8,078 bases of DNA from a virus (lineage: Duplodnaviria; Heunggongvirae; Uroviricota; Caudoviricetes): the IMG/VR virus record IMGVR_UViG_2585427795_000004; one strand, given 5' to 3'. Each line of letters starts with the position of its first letter. The stretch's first letter is position 1. Below are positions 4,196 through 8,078 of the stretch, piece after piece. The notes beneath the pieces are model-generated. The model did no database searches. It had not been told where the DNA came from and saw only the letters and a list, made by a program, of their open reading frames with translations. The position numbers and the translations under genes are program-made.

Positions 4196-4411
4196 TTACT
4201 CTCCCCGTGCAGCCTTACGCTTGTCTTCTTTAATCTTGAAATAAAGGTTTGTCAGGTACGTCAGCAGGCCAAATACCAGGCTACCCAGCACACCTATTGC
4301 TGCCCACTGTGAGGGCGTGACTTTATCGAGCAGCTGTAAAAACCAGTAGCCAGCACTGCCTGCGGAGGTGCCGTAGGCAATGCCTGTTGAAATTTTGTCC
4401 ATGGATTTCAT
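4196..4411 (-). CDS. Class II pinholin (phage 21 S21-like), dual-start antiholin/holin
   Basis: [71 protein letters not shown] closely matches S21 as recalled. GGAGGTGAGG sits immediately upstream of the ATG at 4411, with a second in-frame Met three codons in (M-K-S-M). The track's start at 4468 is an unsupported N-terminal extension. Pairing with a SAR endolysin is the expected pinholin system. Confidence 0.9.
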
Positions 4412-4445
4412 AGCCTCACCTCCGCACGGAACGGATGGCATAGTT

Positions 4446-4473
4446 ATTATGTGTAGGCTTCCAGACACATCAA
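4446..4473 (-). promoter_or_regulatory. Weak candidate sigma70 promoter upstream of the holin
   Basis: Minus strand: TTGATG (complement of 4468-4473), 16-bp spacer, CATAAT (complement of 4446-4451), about 35 nt upstream of the holin start. Sequence-only, and the region is AT-rich, so it could be chance. Confidence 0.25.
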
Positions 4474-4510
4474 TCGGAGCCTTAATTGATATATATGCTG
4501 GAGACGATGC

Positions 4511-4537
4511 AATATAAAAAGCTCGCCGTAGCGAGCT
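4511..4537 (-). terminator. Rho-independent terminator downstream of the lipoprotein cassette
   Basis: Minus-strand RNA AGCUCGC-UACG-GCGAGCU followed by UUUUAUAUU: a 7-bp stem with 5 GC pairs, 4-nt loop and U-tract. Lies about 125 bp downstream of the TAG stop at 4663 and upstream of the holin. Confidence 0.6.
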
Positions 4538-4662
4538 AATAAAATGTATTTCTCTGATATTATGTTTATTTGTATTAGCTCAGACTTGACATCACAGGTT
4601 TCGTATATAGAACATCATCAAATCTGTCAGTTTGCTATGAATGAGATATAGTAATTGAAGAG

Positions 4663-5058
4663 CTAACCTCGCATGTCAAAGCCAGATTTCTGAAAATCTC
4701 TGTAGACTTCCGGATTGTTGAAGGCCGGAAATTTGGCTTTATGAGCTGCGGACTTTATCGCTTCGCAATAGGCTTTATCACCGTTACTGGTAGATATTTT
4801 TAACGCCGTGCCATCCTGAGAGAATTCCATATGCAACCTGCATTTTTTCCCTTTCCAGTTATGCGGCTCATCAAGTTTGGCATTAATTGCAGCTCTGATT
4901 CCCCGCGCTTGCGCCCCCCATTCATCCTGATCATCCCAGCGTCCTGAACTGCAACTACCTGTAGCAGTAGTTTTGTGGCAATCTGAAGGGTGTAAAGGTG
5001 TGCATCCCGCAACAAAACCGACCCAAAAAGTCAACATAACGATTTTCTTTAATCCCAC
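4663..5058 (-). CDS. Lipoprotein with a C-terminal domain homologous to TolA domain III (paralog 1)
   Basis: GTG start at 5058 with GAGGAG 6 nt upstream. Signal peptide MGLKKIVMLTFWVGFVAGC has lipobox VAGC and +2 Thr. C-terminal region ...GKKCRLHMEFSQDGTALKISTSNGDKAYCEAIKSAAHKAKFPAFNNPEVYRDFQ... shares the GKxCxLxM...GD..C...PEVY..F pattern and both cysteines with paralog 2 and with TolA-III. Confidence 0.7.
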   Translation of the reverse strand: MGLKKIVMLTFWVGFVAGCTPLHPSDCHKTTATGSCSSGRWDDQDEWGAQARGIRAAINAKLDEPHNWKGKKCRLHMEFSQDGTALKISTSNGDKAYCEAIKSAAHKAKFPAFNNPEVYRDFQKSGFDMRG

Positions 5059-5208
5059 TTCTTGCTCCTCAATCCATTAAAATCTCAGCAATAGTAGTTG
5101 TTACGTCCGCCACTGGCTCAGAGCTGACTATCCGCTAGATTTAGCTCAGTGCCGTAGTTGTGTCAGAACAAACCTAAGCCGAAACCGTTTATTACAAAAC
5201 AATAAATA

Positions 5209-5637
5209 TCAGGGTTTAAAATCCAGCACCCCATTTTGAAATACTTTATATACTTCCGGCGAAGGGGGGGCAGGTATATCAGCATTCTTTATCGCATTCA
5301 TCGCTTCACGACATAAATCGAGGTCTCCACTTTCTCTTTTAACCTCCAGTAGAAGGCCATTCGGGGCCATATGCATTCTCAGTGTACACTCTTTTCCTGA
5401 ATACTTACTCGCATCCCCGAACTGTTTTTCGATGGCGCTCTTGATTTGATGGGCATACAGACGGATATCCTCACTAACATCAGAAGTACGTTCAGATGAA
5501 CTCACATACTGTGTCTCTATTGCTTTATCGGAGTAATATGATGTACGGTCATGATAATTTGTCGATACAGCATCAGTGCACCCGATAATAATCCCACTAA
5601 TAATCAACGTAAGAATTGATGCGCTACGAAAACCCAT
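5209..5637 (-). CDS. Lipoprotein with a C-terminal domain homologous to TolA domain III (paralog 2)
   Basis: ATG at 5637 with GAGGA upstream. Signal peptide MGFRSASILTLIISGIIIGC has lipobox IIGC and +2 Thr. C-terminus ...YAHQIKSAIEKQFGDASKYSGKECTLRMHMAPNGLLLEVKRESGDLDLCREAMNAIKNADIPAPPSPEVYKVFQNGVLDFKP aligns residue-by-residue with E. coli TolA's C-terminus as I recall it (...YAGQIKSAIESKFYDASSYAGKTCTLRIKLAPDGMLLDIKPEGGDPALCQAALAAAKLAKIPKPPSQAVYEVFKNAPLDFKP), including the disulfide cysteines. Confidence 0.8.
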   Translation of the reverse strand: MGFRSASILTLIISGIIIGCTDAVSTNYHDRTSYYSDKAIETQYVSSSERTSDVSEDIRLYAHQIKSAIEKQFGDASKYSGKECTLRMHMAPNGLLLEVKRESGDLDLCREAMNAIKNADIPAPPSPEVYKVFQNGVLDFKP

Positions 5638-5666
5638 TTTTCCTCACATATGTCATATAGTAAAGG

Positions 5667-5696
5667 ATTATATATACCGTTGTTTTGGACGCTCAA
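5667..5696 (-). promoter_or_regulatory. Candidate sigma70 promoter for the lipoprotein cassette
   Basis: Minus strand: TTGAGC (complement of 5691-5696), 18-bp spacer, perfect TATAAT (complement of 5667-5672), about 30 nt upstream of the paralog-2 ATG. Sequence-only prediction. Confidence 0.4.
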
Positions 5697-6170
5697 ACAG
5701 CGAATCAGATCAAATAAAACGCACATTTGTTAACATTTACACAAAGTCTGCGTGGGATATTCTGAAAGAATATCCATAATGTGGAGAGAATCTATTGAAG
5801 TGCATGGTGCCGGGGGCCTCCCGGTGAATTCAGTACCAGCACCTGAATCCACGATTATCCCATATACCTACTCGCTGATTGCCCCTCCGCACAGGGGGAT
5901 TCACCATGCCAGTTTCTTTTAACAAACTCCCCGCAAACCAGAGAACAGTCAACCGCCTGAATTGTGAAGTATTTAAAAATTTCTCCCGCTAACTGATACC
6001 CGGCTAACAGTCTGGCGTTTTCTTTTTCAGCAACGGGAAAGCAACAACTACCACCCCCGCCACCAGCACACCGTCAGCCAGCACTGACATTATCCGGCTG
6101 CTGCAATGCCATTCACAAAAACAGTAAGCAATCACTTTTTACCGTAACAGGTGATAATCCAGATATGTAT

Positions 6171-6524
6171 CTACCCCAGATGAGTAATCCGAAGTTCATC
6201 CATACCACAGGTCCTGGCTATTCTGTTGTACTCCTGAACAAGAGCAAATAATTCTGAATTAGCAACCATGAACTCATCGCAAACCCTCTGTATAGCATCA
6301 CTATTCAGAATAATAACGTCTCTTCCCGAAAGACGATCAGGAGCACAGAACAAAACTGTCAAACGGCTGAAGGCCTTTGCTCGTGCTGCATTGACTATAT
6401 CAATACGCTGCCTAAGGATGAAACACCCCGACGCCTCATCAATATTCACTCTACCCACACCATATGAATGATAAATATTTAATGCTGAAAAAACCATTAG
6501 ACCGTATAACAAACACTCAATCAA
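6171..6524 (-). CDS. Hypothetical protein, no family recognised
   Basis: 354-nt ORF, but the 6524 start is TTG with no convincing Shine-Dalgarno, and the first in-frame ATG (codon 10) also lacks one. An overlapping plus-strand ORF (6268..6471) exists. It may be a real moron, a gene remnant or non-coding. Confidence 0.3.
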   Translation of the reverse strand: MIECLLYGLMVFSALNIYHSYGVGRVNIDEASGCFILRQRIDIVNAARAKAFSRLTVLFCAPDRLSGRDVIILNSDAIQRVCDEFMVANSELFALVQEYNRIARTCGMDELRITHLG

Positions 6525-6634
6525 TACTTAACAGAACTTTTATTTTTGACAAACATATAATGTTTTCAACAATATCCTGAGCCAGGTATATTCCAGTATA
6601 AGGCTCTGCCGGAAGGAATCTGGAAGAATGAATA

Positions 6635-6711
6635 TGGCGCGCTGTACTGGATTCGAACCAGTGACCGATTGCTTAGAAGGCAATTGCTCTGTCCGGCTGA
6701 GCTAACAACGC
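6635..6711 (-). tRNA. tRNA-Arg (anticodon UCU, reads AGA/AGG), phage-encoded
   Basis: 77-nt minus-strand cloverleaf GCGTTGT-TA-GCTC-AGCCGGACA-GAGC-A-ATTGC-CTTCTAA-GCAAT-CGGTC-ACTGG-TTCGAAT-CCAGT-ACAGCGC-G-CCA. All four stems pair, T-loop is TTCGAAT, and CCA is encoded. Confidence 0.85.
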
Positions 6712-6818: not shown

Positions 6819-6894
6819 TGGTGGCCCTTGCTGGATTTGAACCAGCGACCTGGCGATTATGAGTCGCTCGCTCTCACCACTGAGCTAAAGGACC
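6819..6894 (-). tRNA. tRNA-Ile2 (anticodon CAU, ileX/ileZ-like, reads AUA after lysidine modification); formally Ile/Met ambiguous from the anticodon alone
   Basis: 76-nt minus-strand cloverleaf GGTCCTTTAGCTCAGTGGTGAGAGCGAGCGACTCATAATCGCCAGGTCGCTGGTTCAAATCCAGCAAGGGCCACCA, closely resembling E. coli ileX as recalled. Anticodon loop is CTCATAA and CCA is encoded. Confidence 0.85.
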
Positions 6895-6927: not shown

Positions 6928-7794
6928 CTAAGCGAGGTTCTTGTTTTCAAATTGTTCCGGACTGAGGCCGCCACACCAACTGTGCCGCCGCCACCGATTG
7001 TAATCACATTCGATATAATTAAACACCGTTGCCCGCATTATTTCCCGGCTGATAAAGTGTTCTCCATGGATACATTCCACTTTCAGCGAATGAAAGAAGC
7101 TTTCCACGCAGGCATTATCGTAGCAGCAACCTTTTGCGCTCATACTTCCACGCAGATTATGCCGCTTCAGTTGCGCCTGATAATCTGCTGAACAGTACTG
7201 GCCTCCACGGTCCGTGTGAACGATAACGTTCCGGGGCCTCTTACGCCGCCACAGCGCCATCTGCAGGGCATCGCAGGCCAGTTGCGCCGTCATGCGTGGC
7301 GACATTGACCAGCCAATAACGGCACGTGACCACAGGTCAATGACCACTGCCAGATACAGCCAGCCTTCATCTGTACGTAAGTACGTGATGTCTCCTGCCC
7401 ACTTCTGGTTCGGGCCACTGGCGTAAAAATCCTGCTCCAACAGATTTTCTGACACAGGCAGGCCGTGTGCGCGGTAGCTGACCGGGCTGAACTTCCGGGA
7501 GGCCTTTGCCCTCAGTCCCTGACGGCGCAGGCTTGCCGCCACGGTTTTTACGTTAAAGGGGTAACCCTGAGCACGCAGTTCATCCGTCAGGCGTGGGGCA
7601 CCGTAACGCTGTTTTGACCGGGTAAAAGCCGCGAGGACAACGCTGTCGCAGTGTTGGCGGAACTGCTGACGCGTGCTTATCCTTGTCCGCCGCTGACACC
7701 ACGTATACCAGCCGCTGCGGGCCACCCGGAGCACGCGGCACATTGCTTTGATGCTGAACTCAGCCTGATGTTTTTCAATAAAGACATACTTCAT
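6928..7794 (-). CDS. insF: IS3 transposase OrfB (InsF; DDE integrase-type catalytic domain)
   Basis: 288-aa product [32 protein letters not shown]... matches IS3 InsF as recalled. Its ATG overlaps the orfA stop (ATGA). The frameshift motif CCAAAAGG (complement of 7823-7830) lies just upstream. Confidence 0.95.
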
Positions 7795-8078
7795 TTCAGG
7801 CGCTTCGCGAAGTATGTCGCGGCCTTTTGGAGGATAGCCAGCTCTTCATCCCGTTCTGCCAGCTGGCGTTTGAGACGTGCAATCTCGGTAGACATCTCCA
7901 GTTCACGTTCAGAAGACGTCTGCTGATTTTGCTGTTTACTGCGCCAGTTGTAGAGTTGTGATTCATACAGGCTGAGTTCACGGGCTGCGGCAGTAACACC
8001 GATGCGTTCAGCAAGCTTCAGGGCTTCACTGCGAAATTCAGGCGAATGCTGTTTACGGGGTTTTTTACTGGTTGATAC
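7791..8078 (-). CDS. insE: IS3 OrfA (InsE, HTH transposase subunit), 5'-partial because the start lies beyond the window end
   Basis: Minus-strand translation from the window edge ...[95 protein letters not shown] matches IS3 InsE as recalled. Confidence 0.9.

What the first reader, a model, noticed from the sequence alone, without database searches (positions are those of the whole stretch)
4663..5637. Two tandem prophage lipoproteins that carry TolA domain III: candidate periplasmic decoys for superinfection exclusion or colicin tolerance
Both ORFs combine a lipoprotein signal peptide (lipobox Cys, +2 Thr) with a C-terminal domain that aligns with the C-terminal domain III of the host TolA protein, including both disulfide cysteines and the PxPPSxxVYxVFxNxxLDFKP tail. 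The paralogs have diverged from each other, so this is not a recent duplication. TolA-III is the periplasmic hub exploited by group A colicins and by filamentous phage g3p; my recollection is that periplasmic overproduction of free TolA-III makes cells tolerant to both and perturbs the outer membrane. The proposed exclusion or tolerance function is my inference. Alternatives are modulation of host Tol-Pal or a role in lysis timing.
Basis: partly seen in the sequence, partly recalled or inferred. Interest (0 to 1): 0.85.

Follow-up and report, generated by a model that had tools for sequence, protein, structure and literature searches.

The report
Mobile-element lipoproteins copying TolA's tip
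A defective E. coli prophage carries two small outer-membrane lipoprotein genes that each display a copy of the tip domain of the host protein TolA, the docking point that many colicins and filamentous phages use to enter cells. Similar genes are common on plasmids and prophages, so they are probably untested decoys that protect the host cell.

Summary
On the minus strand, 5637..5209 (A, 142 aa) and 5058..4663 (B, 131 aa) each encode a lipobox signal peptide (Cys20 / Cys19, +2 Thr), a disordered linker and a TolA domain III. Support: Pfam PF06519 (2e-23 and 1e-14), and AlphaFold models that superpose on E. coli TolA-III at 0.6 and 1.2 Å.

The two genes are not tandem duplicates; they have separate histories.
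- A occurs only in lambdoid prophages, at the Q–tRNA–[moron]–holin site. It is about 59% identical to host TolA-III and its β3 strand (LDFKP) is identical.
- B belongs to a mobile singleton family. It is found on pO157, on IncK/Z plasmids, and at varied chromosomal sites in Enterobacter, Serratia, Klebsiella and Citrobacter.

Both genes are under purifying selection: domain dN/dS is 0.03–0.17 across B comparisons and 0.09–0.29 for A. Other lipoprotein TolA-III genes lie in an operon with a secreted TonB-C-terminal-domain protein on about 370–380 Klebsiella cloacin-type plasmids.

No functional study turned up in ten literature searches. Annotation pipelines call these genes "tolA" or a tolA pseudogene.

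The most likely function is a non-energised TolA decoy that makes the cell tolerant to Tol-dependent bacteriocins and filamentous phages. This is inferred, not shown. The main rival is titration of TolB, giving outer-membrane leakiness.

The parts
5667..5696 (-). Sigma-70-like promoter candidate for the A-B unit: TTGAGC, 18-nt spacer, TATAAT. The -10 element ends 30 nt upstream of the A start codon.
   Evidence: It is the best-scoring site in 4300-6700 (10 of 12 matches). It is conserved with one -10 mismatch upstream of a 93%-identical A allele (L046), but not upstream of the 81% allele (L045). This is a consensus match only; activity is not shown.
5209..5637 (-). Gene A: 142-aa lipoprotein made of signal peptide plus lipobox (Cys20), a disordered linker (residues 21-54) and a TolA-III domain (residues 55-142).
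   Evidence: PF06519 2.4e-23; 59% identical to E. coli TolA 334-421; AF2 domain pLDDT about 90; 0.6 Å rmsd to 2x9a_B.
5578..5580 (-). Codon of the lipobox cysteine (Cys20) of A. The lipobox is I-I-G-C, followed by Thr at +2.
   Evidence: Read from the translation. The column is invariant in alignment A1.
5212..5475 (-). TolA-III domain of A (residues 55-142), ending in a β3 strand LDFKP that is identical to TolA 417-421.
5065..5070 (-). Shine-Dalgarno GAGGAG, 6 nt upstream of the GTG start of B.
   Evidence: Read. This stretch and the sequence just upstream are conserved in B homologues of other genera. PGAP's shorter 124-aa call, which starts at Met8, removes the basic n-region.
4663..5058 (-). 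Gene B: 131-aa lipoprotein made of signal peptide plus lipobox (Cys19), a conserved Cys-containing linker (residues 20-45) and a TolA-III domain (residues 46-131).
   Evidence: PF06519 1.3e-14; 31% identical to TolA-III; AF2 domain pLDDT above 90; 1.2 Å rmsd to 3qdp.
5002..5004 (-). Codon of the lipobox cysteine (Cys19) of B. The lipobox is V-A-G-C, followed by Thr at +2.
   Evidence: Invariant in alignments A1 and A2.
4666..4923 (-). TolA-III domain of B (residues 46-131), ending in β3 FDMRG.
4510..4537 (-). Intrinsic-terminator-like hairpin AGCTCGC-TACG-GCGAGCT followed by TTTTTATATTG. It lies between B and the holin gene.
   Evidence: 7-bp stem, 5 G-C pairs. Together with the promoter candidate it gives a promoter-genes-terminator 'moron' layout inside the late operon.

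Best explanation
A and B are small lipoproteins. [quoted passage not shown]

The real TolA-III is the docking point used by group A colicins and related bacteriocins and by the g3p protein of filamentous phages. It works for them only because it is coupled to the TolQR motor. An uncoupled copy tethered beside the porins should capture these invaders as they emerge into the periplasm and strand them, making the cell tolerant.

A keeps the TolA β3 edge exactly and two of the three colicin A lysines, so it should mimic E. coli TolA closely. B has diverged at both edges and probably covers other ligands.

The pair forms a 'moron' with its own promoter candidate and terminator. It would therefore be expressed in the lysogen, and also from the late operon after induction.

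Shown here: the gene structure, the fold, conservation of the interface, purifying selection, and the distribution on mobile elements.

Inferred: outer-membrane localisation, ligand binding, expression, and the tolerance phenotype.
For: 1. Architecture. Both proteins have a lipobox with Thr at +2 (not the Asp that retains lipoproteins in the inner membrane), a disordered linker and a TolA-III domain. They have no TolA domain I or II, so they cannot couple to TolQR.

2. Fold. The models match E. coli TolA-III, including its complexes with phage g3p and colicin A, at 0.6-1.3 Å.

3. Interface.
- TolA D418 and K420 on β3 are the residues whose proline substitution abolishes colicin N and g3p binding and gives a tol phenotype (PMC4339652).
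- A has LDFKP, identical to TolA. B has FDMRG. The Klebsiella plasmid types have LDFR(P/L).
- At the colicin A site (L375-P380, K368/K379/K396; PMC3365938), A reads LLEVKR with H/K/K.

4. Selection. Domain dN/dS is 0.09-0.29 for A and 0.03-0.17 across all B comparisons (0.03-0.08 among the 79-89%-identical homologues).

5. Genomic company.
- At least three separate lipoprotein-TolA-III lineages sit on mobile elements involved in bacterial competition.
- These are prophage moron sites, pO157 and IncK2/Z plasmids, about 306 large Klebsiella plasmids (the one inspected is conjugative), and about 370-380 small Klebsiella plasmids.
- On the one small plasmid inspected (L043), the gene is in an operon with a secreted TonB-C-domain-only protein, next to a cloacin-like bacteriocin operon.
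- The TonB_C + TolA-III pairing recurs independently in Klebsiella/Raoultella chromosomes, in the opposite gene order.
- TolA-III and TonB-CTD share one obvious property: they are the two periplasmic hubs hijacked by bacteriocins and phages.
- Some chromosomal B copies lie beside defence-type genes (GmrSD + HEPN; AAA/DUF4435).

6. Affinity window. Colicin N binds TolA at about 1 µM, against about 40 µM for TolB-TolA (PMC4339652). A modest decoy level could therefore trap invaders without titrating TolB.

7. Precedent. Periplasmic g3p-N1, the mirror experiment, gives colicin A resistance and a 4-log drop in phage uptake by sequestering TolA (PMC10424213). From my own knowledge: Levengood-Freyermuth et al. 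1993 (J Bacteriol 175:222) reported colicin and f1 tolerance on periplasmic TolA-III expression. That paper could not be read here.
Against: - There is no expression, localisation, binding or phenotype data for any member of the family.
- The promoter is only a consensus match, and it is not conserved upstream of the 81% A allele.
- Periplasmic TolA-III overproduction is known to make cells leaky (PMC6195910). A decoy therefore carries a cost, and the same property fits the rival explanation.
- Only 1 of 50,697 deposited phage genomes carries the genes. The 99-100% allele in about 780 E. coli genomes could largely reflect vertical inheritance of one defective prophage rather than repeated selection.
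- B has lost the colicin A lysines and altered β3, so it may not bind any known TolA ligand.
- PADLOC has no model for these proteins. That means only that they are not among known defence proteins.
Confidence: 0.45

Rival explanations
1. Tol-Pal modulator. The tethered TolA-III domains bind the N-terminus of TolB (TolA's physiological β3 ligand) and compete with TolA. Pal mobilisation falls and the outer membrane loosens. This would give leakiness or vesiculation that helps phage lysis, release of periplasmic or bacteriocin cargo, or production of decoy vesicles.
For: - β3, the TolB site, is the best-conserved edge in A and in the Klebsiella plasmid types.
- Periplasmic TolA-III overproduction is used deliberately to make E. 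coli release periplasmic proteins (PMC6195910).
- A-B lies inside the late operon directly upstream of holin-endolysin-Rz/Rz1. One lineage sits beside a bacteriocin-immunity-lysis operon.
- The Tol-Pal review notes that modulating the TolB-TolA or TolB-Pal interactions could regulate vesicle production (PMC7391070).
Against: - The TolB-TolA affinity is weak (about 40 µM), so high expression would be needed.
- A complete spanin pair is already present.
- Most B copies (plasmid leading regions, chromosomal singletons) have no lysis or release genes nearby.
- Pairing with a TonB-CTD-only protein is not explained by a Tol-Pal-specific role.
- On the Klebsiella plasmid, the LexA box serves the bacteriocin operon and not the TolA-III/TonB_C operon.
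- A terminator separates B from the holin.
Confidence: 0.22
2. Protection linked to conjugation. The B family (and the 144-aa Klebsiella type) mainly serves conjugative plasmids. It would shield pilus-bearing cells from pilus-specific filamentous phages, which need TolA as co-receptor, or protect new transconjugants early after entry. The prophage copy would be a secondary acquisition. This is a narrower version of the decoy model.
For: - The 88% B variant lies directly after the nikA/nikB relaxase genes on IncK2/Z (MPF_I) plasmids, and in the psiB-psiA-hok leading region of pO157.
- Another hit lies next to psiA (H211).
- The 144-aa type is on MOBP/MPF_I Klebsiella plasmids.
- Phage IF1, which attacks I-pilus-bearing cells (my own knowledge), has a g3p whose complex with TolA-III is solved (2x9a), and that structure is a top match for both models.
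Against: - pO157 is non-mobilisable, and many B copies are chromosomal with no conjugation genes.
- The Col-type plasmids carry no pilus genes.
- A is confined to prophages.
Confidence: 0.13
3. A different, unknown ligand. The TolA/TonB-type fold is only a scaffold, and these lipoproteins bind something unrelated to TolA's known partners, such as an outer-membrane protein, peptidoglycan or a host factor. The function could then be serum resistance, adhesion or envelope stress tolerance, as with other prophage lipoproteins such as Bor.
For: - B differs from TolA at 8 of the 13 non-cysteine interface positions mapped.
- B has a strongly conserved linker (CHKTTATGSCSSGRWDDQDEWG; linker dN/dS 0.07-0.17) that a mere tether would not need.
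- More than 50 distinct 50%-identity clusters of proteins with a lipobox-like N-terminal motif and similarity to the B domain exist (most 105-210 aa), which suggests a broad and possibly housekeeping-like family.
Against: - A is too close to E. coli TolA-III (59% identity, identical β3, 0.6 Å) for a scaffold-only reading.
- The repeated association with TonB-CTD-only genes and with bacteriocin plasmids points to the import hubs.
Confidence: 0.15
4. Non-functional remnants: fragments of tolA captured by a decaying prophage, as the PGAP 'incomplete tolA pseudogene' label implies.
For: - PGAP marks A as 'tolA, incomplete, missing N-terminus' in some genomes.
- The surrounding prophage is defective, with truncated tail fibre genes and IS insertions.
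Against: - Both ORFs are intact and have good ribosome-binding sites and their own lipoprotein signal peptides.
- dN/dS is well below 1.
- There is no detectable nucleotide similarity to host tolA: blastn hit only 898 of 5426 genomes.
- The architecture is conserved in many lineages.
Confidence: 0.02

Closest known systems
TolA domain III of the Tol-Pal system (E. coli TolA residues about 325-421; Pfam PF06519; PDB 1TOL, 2X9A, 3QDP/3QDR, 1S62)
   Same: - Same fold, at 0.6-1.3 Å rmsd.
- Both disulfide cysteines are present.
- A has an identical β3 strand (LDFKP) and is 59% identical overall. B is 31% identical.
   Different: - There is no transmembrane domain I (the TolQR coupling part) and no long helical domain II.
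- Instead there is a lipoprotein signal peptide and a short disordered tether, so the domain is predicted to hang from the outer membrane and cannot be energised.
- The genes are on mobile elements, not in the tol-pal operon.
Engineered periplasmic TolA-III fragments (Levengood-Freyermuth 1993; Wan & Baneyx 1998) and periplasmic g3p-N1
   Same: - These are free TolA-III, or its ligand, placed in the periplasm, and they act as dominant-negative competitors of the TolA hub.
- Reported effects are leakiness (PMC6195910) and colicin or phage tolerance (PMC10424213; the 1993 paper is cited from my own knowledge).
   Different: - Those are laboratory constructs: soluble, overproduced, and with the exact TolA sequence.
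- A and B are natural, diverged, lipid-anchored genes under purifying selection on mobile elements.
Prophage or phage exclusion lipoproteins Cor (phi80/N15) and Llp (T5), and plasmid TraT
   Same: They are small outer-membrane lipoproteins encoded by a mobile element that protect the carrier cell against incoming phages or DNA. Cor and Llp act from the periplasmic face of the outer membrane.
   Different: - Cor and Llp block the outer-membrane receptor FhuA rather than imitating a periplasmic co-receptor.
- There is no sequence relationship: Pfam finds only TolA and TonB_2 in A and B.
- The mechanism proposed here is mimicry of the hub, not masking of a receptor.
Lambdoid 'morons' at the Q-to-holin position (stx, and other cargo between Q/tRNAs and S)
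   Same: - Same location: Q, then tRNAs, then cargo, then (nanS-p), then holin.
- There is a candidate own promoter and a terminator, and GC content is lower than in the neighbouring lysis genes.
   Different: The cargo is a captured host-domain mimic rather than a toxin or effector.
TonB C-terminal domain (PF03544) and secreted TonB_C-only proteins
   Same: - The fold is related (A also scores on TonB_2; TonB CTDs appear further down the fold searches).
- TonB_C-only genes are the operon partners of lipoprotein TolA-III genes in two lineages.
   Different: A and B are clearly of the TolA type. No TonB_C-only gene is present in this window.

Membership tests
Pfam PF06519 (TolA C-terminal domain) | Score above the family gathering threshold (25 bits) across most of the 96-position model | tested here: met
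   A: 82.6 bits, model positions 4-96. B: 54.6 bits, model positions 10-92.
Pfam PF06519 (TolA C-terminal domain) | TolA-III fold (α1-β1-β2-α2-α3-β3) with the conserved disulfide | tested here: met
   The AF2 domains have pLDDT of about 90 and the same order of secondary-structure elements. The best PDB matches are all TolA-III, with TM-score normalised to target length (TMt) 0.81-0.94 for the three E. coli TolA-III-only crystal chains (3qdp, 3qdr_A, 2x9a_B). C363 and C388 are conserved. The models are predictions, not solved structures.
TolA proper (Tol-Pal inner-membrane protein; NCBIfam NF007065 / TIGR02794 equivalogs) | N-terminal transmembrane domain I that couples to TolQ-TolR | tested here: not met
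   The N-termini are lipoprotein signal peptides ending in a lipobox Cys. The matches cover only model positions 265-362 or 293-386.
TolA proper (Tol-Pal inner-membrane protein; NCBIfam NF007065 / TIGR02794 equivalogs) | Long Ala/Lys/Glu-rich helical domain II that spans the periplasm | tested here: not met
   The proteins are 142 and 131 aa. Residues 21-54 (A) and 20-45 (B) are predicted to be disordered linkers.
TolA proper (Tol-Pal inner-membrane protein; NCBIfam NF007065 / TIGR02794 equivalogs) | Whole-protein score above the curated equivalog cut-off | tested here: not met
   NF007065: 107.8 and 53.7 bits against a 213-bit cut-off. Under TIGR02794, A reaches 75.6 against 59.45, but only through its C-terminal domain. 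This explains the 'tolA' and 'tolA pseudogene' labels given by PGAP.
Bacterial lipoproteins (Lgt/LspA/Lnt pathway; Lol sorting to the outer membrane) | Signal peptide ending in a lipobox [LVI][ASTVI][GAS]C; the +2 residue is not Asp for outer-membrane sorting | tested here: met
   A: IIGC|T. B: VAGC|T. The Cys is invariant in the relatives. A lipobox-like motif is also found in more than 50 distant clusters. This is pattern inspection only; no dedicated predictor was available.
Bacterial lipoproteins (Lgt/LspA/Lnt pathway; Lol sorting to the outer membrane) | Actual lipidation and outer-membrane localisation | not testable with these tools
   Needs globomycin or palmitate labelling and membrane fractionation.
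Phage 'moron' (autonomous transcription unit inside a late operon) | Own promoter upstream and a terminator downstream, with composition different from the flanks | tested here: inconclusive
   There is a 10/12 promoter-like site at 5696..5667 and a good terminator at 4537..4520. GC is 0.38-0.46, against 0.47-0.53 in the lysis genes. The promoter is not conserved in one diverged allele, and there are no expression data.
Known anti-phage defence or superinfection-exclusion proteins (PADLOC-DB; Cor/Llp-type lipoproteins) | Sequence match to a described defence or exclusion protein family | tested here: not met
   There are no PADLOC hits. Pfam finds only TolA and TonB_2. PHROG 5772, which contains both proteins, has 'unknown function'.
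TolA-hub decoy (functional class proposed here) | Binds TolA ligands (g3p-N1, colicin T-domains, TolB N-terminus) and confers tolerance | not testable with these tools
   Only the conservation of interface residues could be checked. A is identical at β3 and keeps K379 and K396. B is diverged.

The most novel reading that the evidence does not exclude
Mobile elements of Enterobacterales (prophages, conjugative and bacteriocin plasmids) have repeatedly captured the C-terminal 'hub' domains of the two envelope energy transducers. TolA-III is carried as an outer-membrane lipoprotein, and TonB-CTD as a secreted periplasmic protein. These are deployed as non-energised molecular decoys. The result would be a broad, receptor-independent layer of tolerance to Tol- and Ton-dependent bacteriocins and phages. 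This would be a natural defence strategy, co-receptor mimicry in the periplasm, that has not been described. The A-B pair in this prophage would be a two-specificity version of it.
Probability: 0.35. Interest if true: 0.85.

Novelty: new variant of a known kind. Interest (0 to 1): 0.66.

Why it matters
If these proteins are decoys, tolerance to colicins, klebicins and filamentous phages would be a transferable trait. About 16-23% of complete E. coli genomes carry A or B, and more than a thousand sequenced plasmids carry such a gene, including pO157 and common Klebsiella plasmids.

That would bear on three things:
- bacteriocin- and phage-based therapeutics, through pre-existing, mobile and target-independent tolerance;
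- how bacteriocin producers and plasmids compete in the gut;
- the Tol-Pal field, which would gain natural dominant-negative TolA-III variants with diverged ligand edges as probes of the TolA-TolB/colicin/g3p interfaces.

It would also correct a systematic annotation error: these genes are labelled 'tolA' or 'tolA pseudogene'.

If instead they loosen the outer membrane, they would be the first natural regulators of Tol-Pal encoded by mobile elements. Either result can be tested with a few plasmids and spot assays.

Tried and rejected
1. Recent tandem duplication is rejected.
- A and B are 28% identical.
- A' alleles occur without B.
- B occurs without A on plasmids and in other genera.

2. Recent capture from the E. 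coli tolA gene is rejected.
- blastn with word size 11 using gene A hits only 898 of 5426 genomes, so the resident tolA is not detectable at the nucleotide level.

3. The pseudogene or remnant reading is rejected on dN/dS and intact signals.

4. SOS control was checked.
- There is no LexA box near A or B.
- On the Klebsiella plasmid, the only perfect box belongs to the bacteriocin promoter.

5. A TolB-box-like motif in the B linker (SSGRWDDQDEWG, against colicin E9 DGSGWSSENNPW recalled from memory) was considered.
- The spacing of the two Trp residues differs by one.
- The second aromatic residue aligns with Tyr340 of TolA helix α1, which is inside the folded domain.
- It is not pursued as evidence.

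6. Expression evidence was sought.
- One paper links a 32-fold ciprofloxacin-induced CP-933O gene (EDL933_2012) to 'TolA'.
- Its supplement annotates that gene as a tail fibre protein, so it cannot be used.

7. Literature: ten full-text searches found no functional study.
- The terms combined TolA-like, decoy, prophage, lipoprotein, pO157, klebicin/cloacin and prophage-encoded.
- One survey merely notes TolA and 'TolB family' genes on a cloacin plasmid (PMC10269471).
- The 1993 TolA-III overexpression paper is not held.

8. The deposited phage collection (tblastn) gave a single record, mEp460_ev081, so isolated phages offered no comparative series.
Full report
**What is in the window**

The window is part of a defective lambdoid prophage of E. 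coli. All late genes are on the minus strand:
- IS3-family transposase ORF (insF-type, identified from memory; not run through any family search), 6928-7794
- two tRNAs, 6819-6894 and 6635-6711
- an unknown ORF, 6171-6524
- gene A, 5637..5209
- gene B, 5058..4663
- S21-type holin, 4468..4196
- DUF1327/YdfR
- lysozyme
- Rz with embedded Rz1

Identical DNA lies in the Qin-type prophage, with ydfJ on one side and rspB on the other, in E. coli O177:H21. There, an antiterminator Q gene and the tRNAs precede the cassette.

**Checking the observation**

Both ORFs exist as described.
- A begins MGFRSASILTLIISGIIIGC|TD and B begins MGLKKIVMLTFWVGFVAGC|TP.
- Each has a basic n-region, a hydrophobic core, a canonical lipobox and Thr at +2.
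- B uses a GTG start 6 nt downstream of GAGGAG. PGAP's shorter call removes the basic n-region.
- The lipobox Cys is invariant across 24 relatives.

The C-terminal halves are true TolA-III domains.
- Pfam PF06519 gives 2.4e-23 for A and 1.3e-14 for B.
- phmmer against solved structures returns only E. coli TolA-containing chains, at 5e-28 for A and 5e-9 for B.
- AlphaFold2 models place residues 55-142 of A and 46-131 of B at pLDDT of about 90, with the TolA-III order of secondary-structure elements.
- In both models the preceding 39-52 N-terminal residues (signal peptide plus linker) are disordered.
- Foldseek puts A on 2x9a_B (TolA-III bound to phage IF1 g3p) at 0.6 Å over 86 residues.
- It puts B on 3qdp at 1.2 Å.

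One detail needs correcting. The PxPPS...LDFKP tail is present in A only; B ends ...FDMRG.

**They are not TolA**

Neither protein has TolA domain I or II. They fail the NF007065 equivalog cut-off.

A passes TIGR02794 only through its C-terminal 98 positions. That explains why pipelines name it 'tolA' or an 'incomplete tolA pseudogene'.

**Two genes with two histories**

Distribution of A:
- Gene A is in 898 of 5426 complete E. coli genomes, and 959 of its 962 places are chromosomal.
- In IMG/VR prophage contigs, the 99-100% allele is followed by B and then the holin wherever the contig extends far enough downstream. Two different endolysin modules can follow.
- The 65-68% alleles never have B. 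They sit 3.6-4.6 kb upstream of the holin.
- In complete genomes, diverged A alleles (81% and 93% nucleotide identity) lie in a Q–tRNA–A–(esterase)–holin layout, which is the slot used by stx in Stx phages.

Distribution of B:
- Gene B is in 1269 of 5426 E. coli genomes, and 536 of its places are on plasmids.
- An 88% variant lies after psiB-psiA-hok on pO157, and directly after the nikA/nikB-type relaxase genes on IncK2/Z plasmids.
- About 600 PLSDB plasmids carry it.
- Homologues at 47-89% identity are solitary genes in different chromosomal neighbourhoods in about 30 species. These include Enterobacter, Citrobacter, Klebsiella, Leclercia, Serratia, Raoultella, Rouxiella and Kluyvera.
- Some of these copies lie next to defence-type genes: GmrSD + HEPN in Serratia, and a deaminase plus AAA/DUF4435 in K. 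indica.

Other points:
- Homology between the prophage B and the other B copies begins only about 45 nt upstream of the start codon. In the prophage, B therefore probably depends on A's promoter or on late transcription.
- Only one of 50,697 deposited phage genomes has the cassette. It is mEp460_ev081, whose flanks match the Qin-like prophage.

**A wider class**

An exhaustive profile-free search with B found 130 clusters at 50% identity.
- More than 50 of them are proteins with a lipobox-like motif near the N-terminus and similarity to the B domain; most are 105-210 aa.
- A third lineage is a 123-aa lipoprotein (…LLLTAC|K…, ending NAPLDFRP).
- Its stop codon overlaps the start of a 121-aa secreted TonB_C-only protein.
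- On the plasmid inspected, this pair lies beside a cloacin-like tRNase bacteriocin-immunity-lysis operon. About 370-380 small Klebsiella ColRNAI plasmids carry the pair.
- A 144-aa relative is on about 306 larger Klebsiella plasmids; the one inspected is conjugative.
- Independently, Klebsiella grimontii, K. michiganensis, a Raoultella MAG and a Klebsiella plasmid carry a secreted TonB_C-only gene (PF03544, 9e-16) immediately upstream of a B-like gene. This is the opposite gene order.

**Evidence of function**
- Nei-Gojobori dN/dS for the TolA-III domain is 0.09-0.29 between A alleles.
- It is 0.03-0.08 between B and its 79-89% homologues, and 0.14-0.17 for the more distant Rouxiella and K. 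grimontii homologues.
- The B linker is also constrained (0.07-0.17). It holds a conserved Cys pair.
- A promoter-like site (TTGAGC-18-TATAAT, 5696..5667) and a strong terminator hairpin (4537..4520) bracket the pair.
- GC content is somewhat lower than in the lysis genes.
- The promoter is only a consensus match, and it is absent upstream of the 81% allele.

**Interface mapping**

Published work identifies three sites on TolA.
- β3 residues D418 and K420 are essential for g3p and colicin N binding and for Tol function (PMC4339652).
- TolB binds the same edge (PMC7391070).
- Colicin A binds the opposite edge, L375-P380, with cation-π lysines K368, K379 and K396 (PMC3365938).

How the proteins compare:

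| Protein | β3 (TolA LDFKP) | Colicin A edge (TolA LLDIKP) | K368 / K379 / K396 |
|---|---|---|---|
| A | LDFKP (identical) | LLEVKR | H / K / K |
| B | FDMRG | ALKIST | E / S / H |
| Klebsiella plasmid types | LDFRP / LDFRL | not conserved | S/I/T and Y/T/T |

The edge most widely retained (identical or near-identical in A and the Klebsiella plasmid types, altered in B) is the one used by TolB, g3p and colicin N. A and B are unlikely to have the same ligand range.

**Most likely mechanism**

The most likely mechanism is a non-energised, outer-membrane-tethered copy of the TolA hub. It would capture Tol-dependent invaders and strand them.

Arguments in favour:
- the architecture;
- the conserved β3 edge;
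- carriage on mobile elements involved in competition;
- the recurrent pairing with TonB-CTD-only proteins, TonB-CTD being the other hijacked hub;
- the 40-fold affinity gap between colicin N and TolB for TolA;
- the mirror experiment with periplasmic g3p-N1;
- from my own knowledge, the 1993 report of colicin and f1 tolerance on periplasmic TolA-III expression, which was not readable here.

The main rival is titration of TolB with loosening of the outer membrane. It is supported by the use of periplasmic TolA-III to make cells leaky and by the position next to lysis genes.

It is weakened by four points: the many B copies with no lysis context, the TonB_C pairing, the terminator before the holin, and the weak TolB affinity.

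All functional statements are inference. No expression, localisation, binding or phenotype data exist for any member.

**Novelty**

The domain assignment is already in Pfam, RefSeq and PHROGs, where PHROG 5772 is listed as 'unknown function'. The bare observation is therefore not new.

Ten full-text searches found no study of these proteins. PADLOC has no model for them.

The following appear to be undescribed: a natural class of lipoprotein TolA-III genes on mobile elements, their pairing with TonB_C-only genes, and the decoy hypothesis.

I rate this as a new variant of a known kind (protective lipoprotein cargo of mobile elements), with moderate-to-high interest because it is widespread and easy to test.

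Noticed in passing
L043 (NZ_CP031718.1, Klebsiella pneumoniae 10-kb ColRNAI plasmid) 5905-6638: A two-gene operon with overlapping stop and start codons. It encodes a 123-aa lipoprotein TolA-III and a 121-aa Sec-secreted TonB_C-only protein. It lies on the opposite strand, about 0.85 kb from the start of the cloacin-like tRNase bacteriocin-immunity-lysis operon, with a small hypothetical ORF between. About 370-380 plasmids carry the pair at 99% identity or more.
   Followed up: partly
L040 7565-8393 (Klebsiella grimontii); also L038, L039, L041: A secreted 125-aa TonB_C-only gene (PF03544, 9e-16) lies immediately upstream of a B-like lipoprotein TolA-III gene near xseA/guaB. The gene order is opposite to the plasmid pair, which suggests the pairing arose or was kept independently.
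   Followed up: partly
L044 9001-9393 (pO157, NZ_CP038495.1) and L048 7001-7393 (IncK2/Z plasmid): An 88%-identical B variant sits in the psiB-psiA-hok leading region of the O157:H7 virulence plasmid, upstream of toxB. It also sits directly after the relaxase gene of I-complex conjugative plasmids.
   Followed up: partly
window 5209-5637; L001 20810-21070: Annotation error. PGAP names gene A 'tolA', and in some genomes marks it as an incomplete tolA pseudogene (annotated from 261 bp only), because the domain alone passes the TIGR02794 cut-off. In phage record LR597641 the holin is labelled 'Phage tail fiber protein'.
   Followed up: yes
window 4924-5001 (B residues 20-45): The B linker is not a neutral spacer. 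CHKTTATGSCSSGRWDDQDEWG, with a Cys27/Cys36 pair and an acidic, Trp-containing stretch, is conserved across genera (linker dN/dS 0.07-0.17). It loosely resembles a colicin TolB box, but the spacing differs and part of it belongs to helix α1.
   Followed up: partly
window 6928-8078: An IS3-family element (288-aa transposase ORF at 6928-7794, with more of the element running to the window end) lies immediately upstream of the prophage tRNAs. In related prophages, Q and the late promoter lie about 150 bp upstream of the tRNAs. In this copy, late transcription of A-B and the lysis genes may therefore be cut off from Q.
   Followed up: no
window 6819-6894 and 6635-6711: These are prophage tRNA genes. 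ARAGORN calls the first tRNA-Met (CAT), while PGAP annotates the first of the two prophage tRNAs at the equivalent position in a related prophage as tRNA-Ile, presumably the lysidine-modified ileX type. The second is tRNA-Arg (UCU).
   Followed up: no
window 6171-6524: A 117-aa ORF (PHROG 2873, unknown function, no Pfam hit) lies upstream of A in some carriers of the cassette. A 58% relative lies downstream of A' alleles in five IMG/VR contigs.
   Followed up: no
L002 (LR597641.1, phage mEp460_ev081) 3000-7600: This is the only deposited phage genome with the A-B cassette. Within the compared late region (ORF117, A, B, holin, YdfR-like gene, lysozyme) it matches the Qin-like prophage. This suggests the active phage picked up the module by recombination with a defective prophage.
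   Followed up: no
L007 8957-10736 (Serratia marcescens) and L013 8604-10948 (Klebsiella indica): Chromosomal B homologues lie next to defence-type genes: GmrSD_N plus a HEPN protein in Serratia, and a cytidine-deaminase-like gene plus an AAA_21/DUF4435 ATPase in K. indica.
   Followed up: no
L047 5217-6246 (Klebsiella IncFII/MPF_I plasmid); L011 7123-8247: Thioredoxin-fold or DsbC-like genes lie near plasmid TolA-III genes. A 182-aa thioredoxin-fold gene is directly upstream of the 144-aa type, and a TrbB-like gene is in the I-complex plasmids. This may matter for a disulfide-containing periplasmic domain, or it may be coincidence.
   Followed up: no
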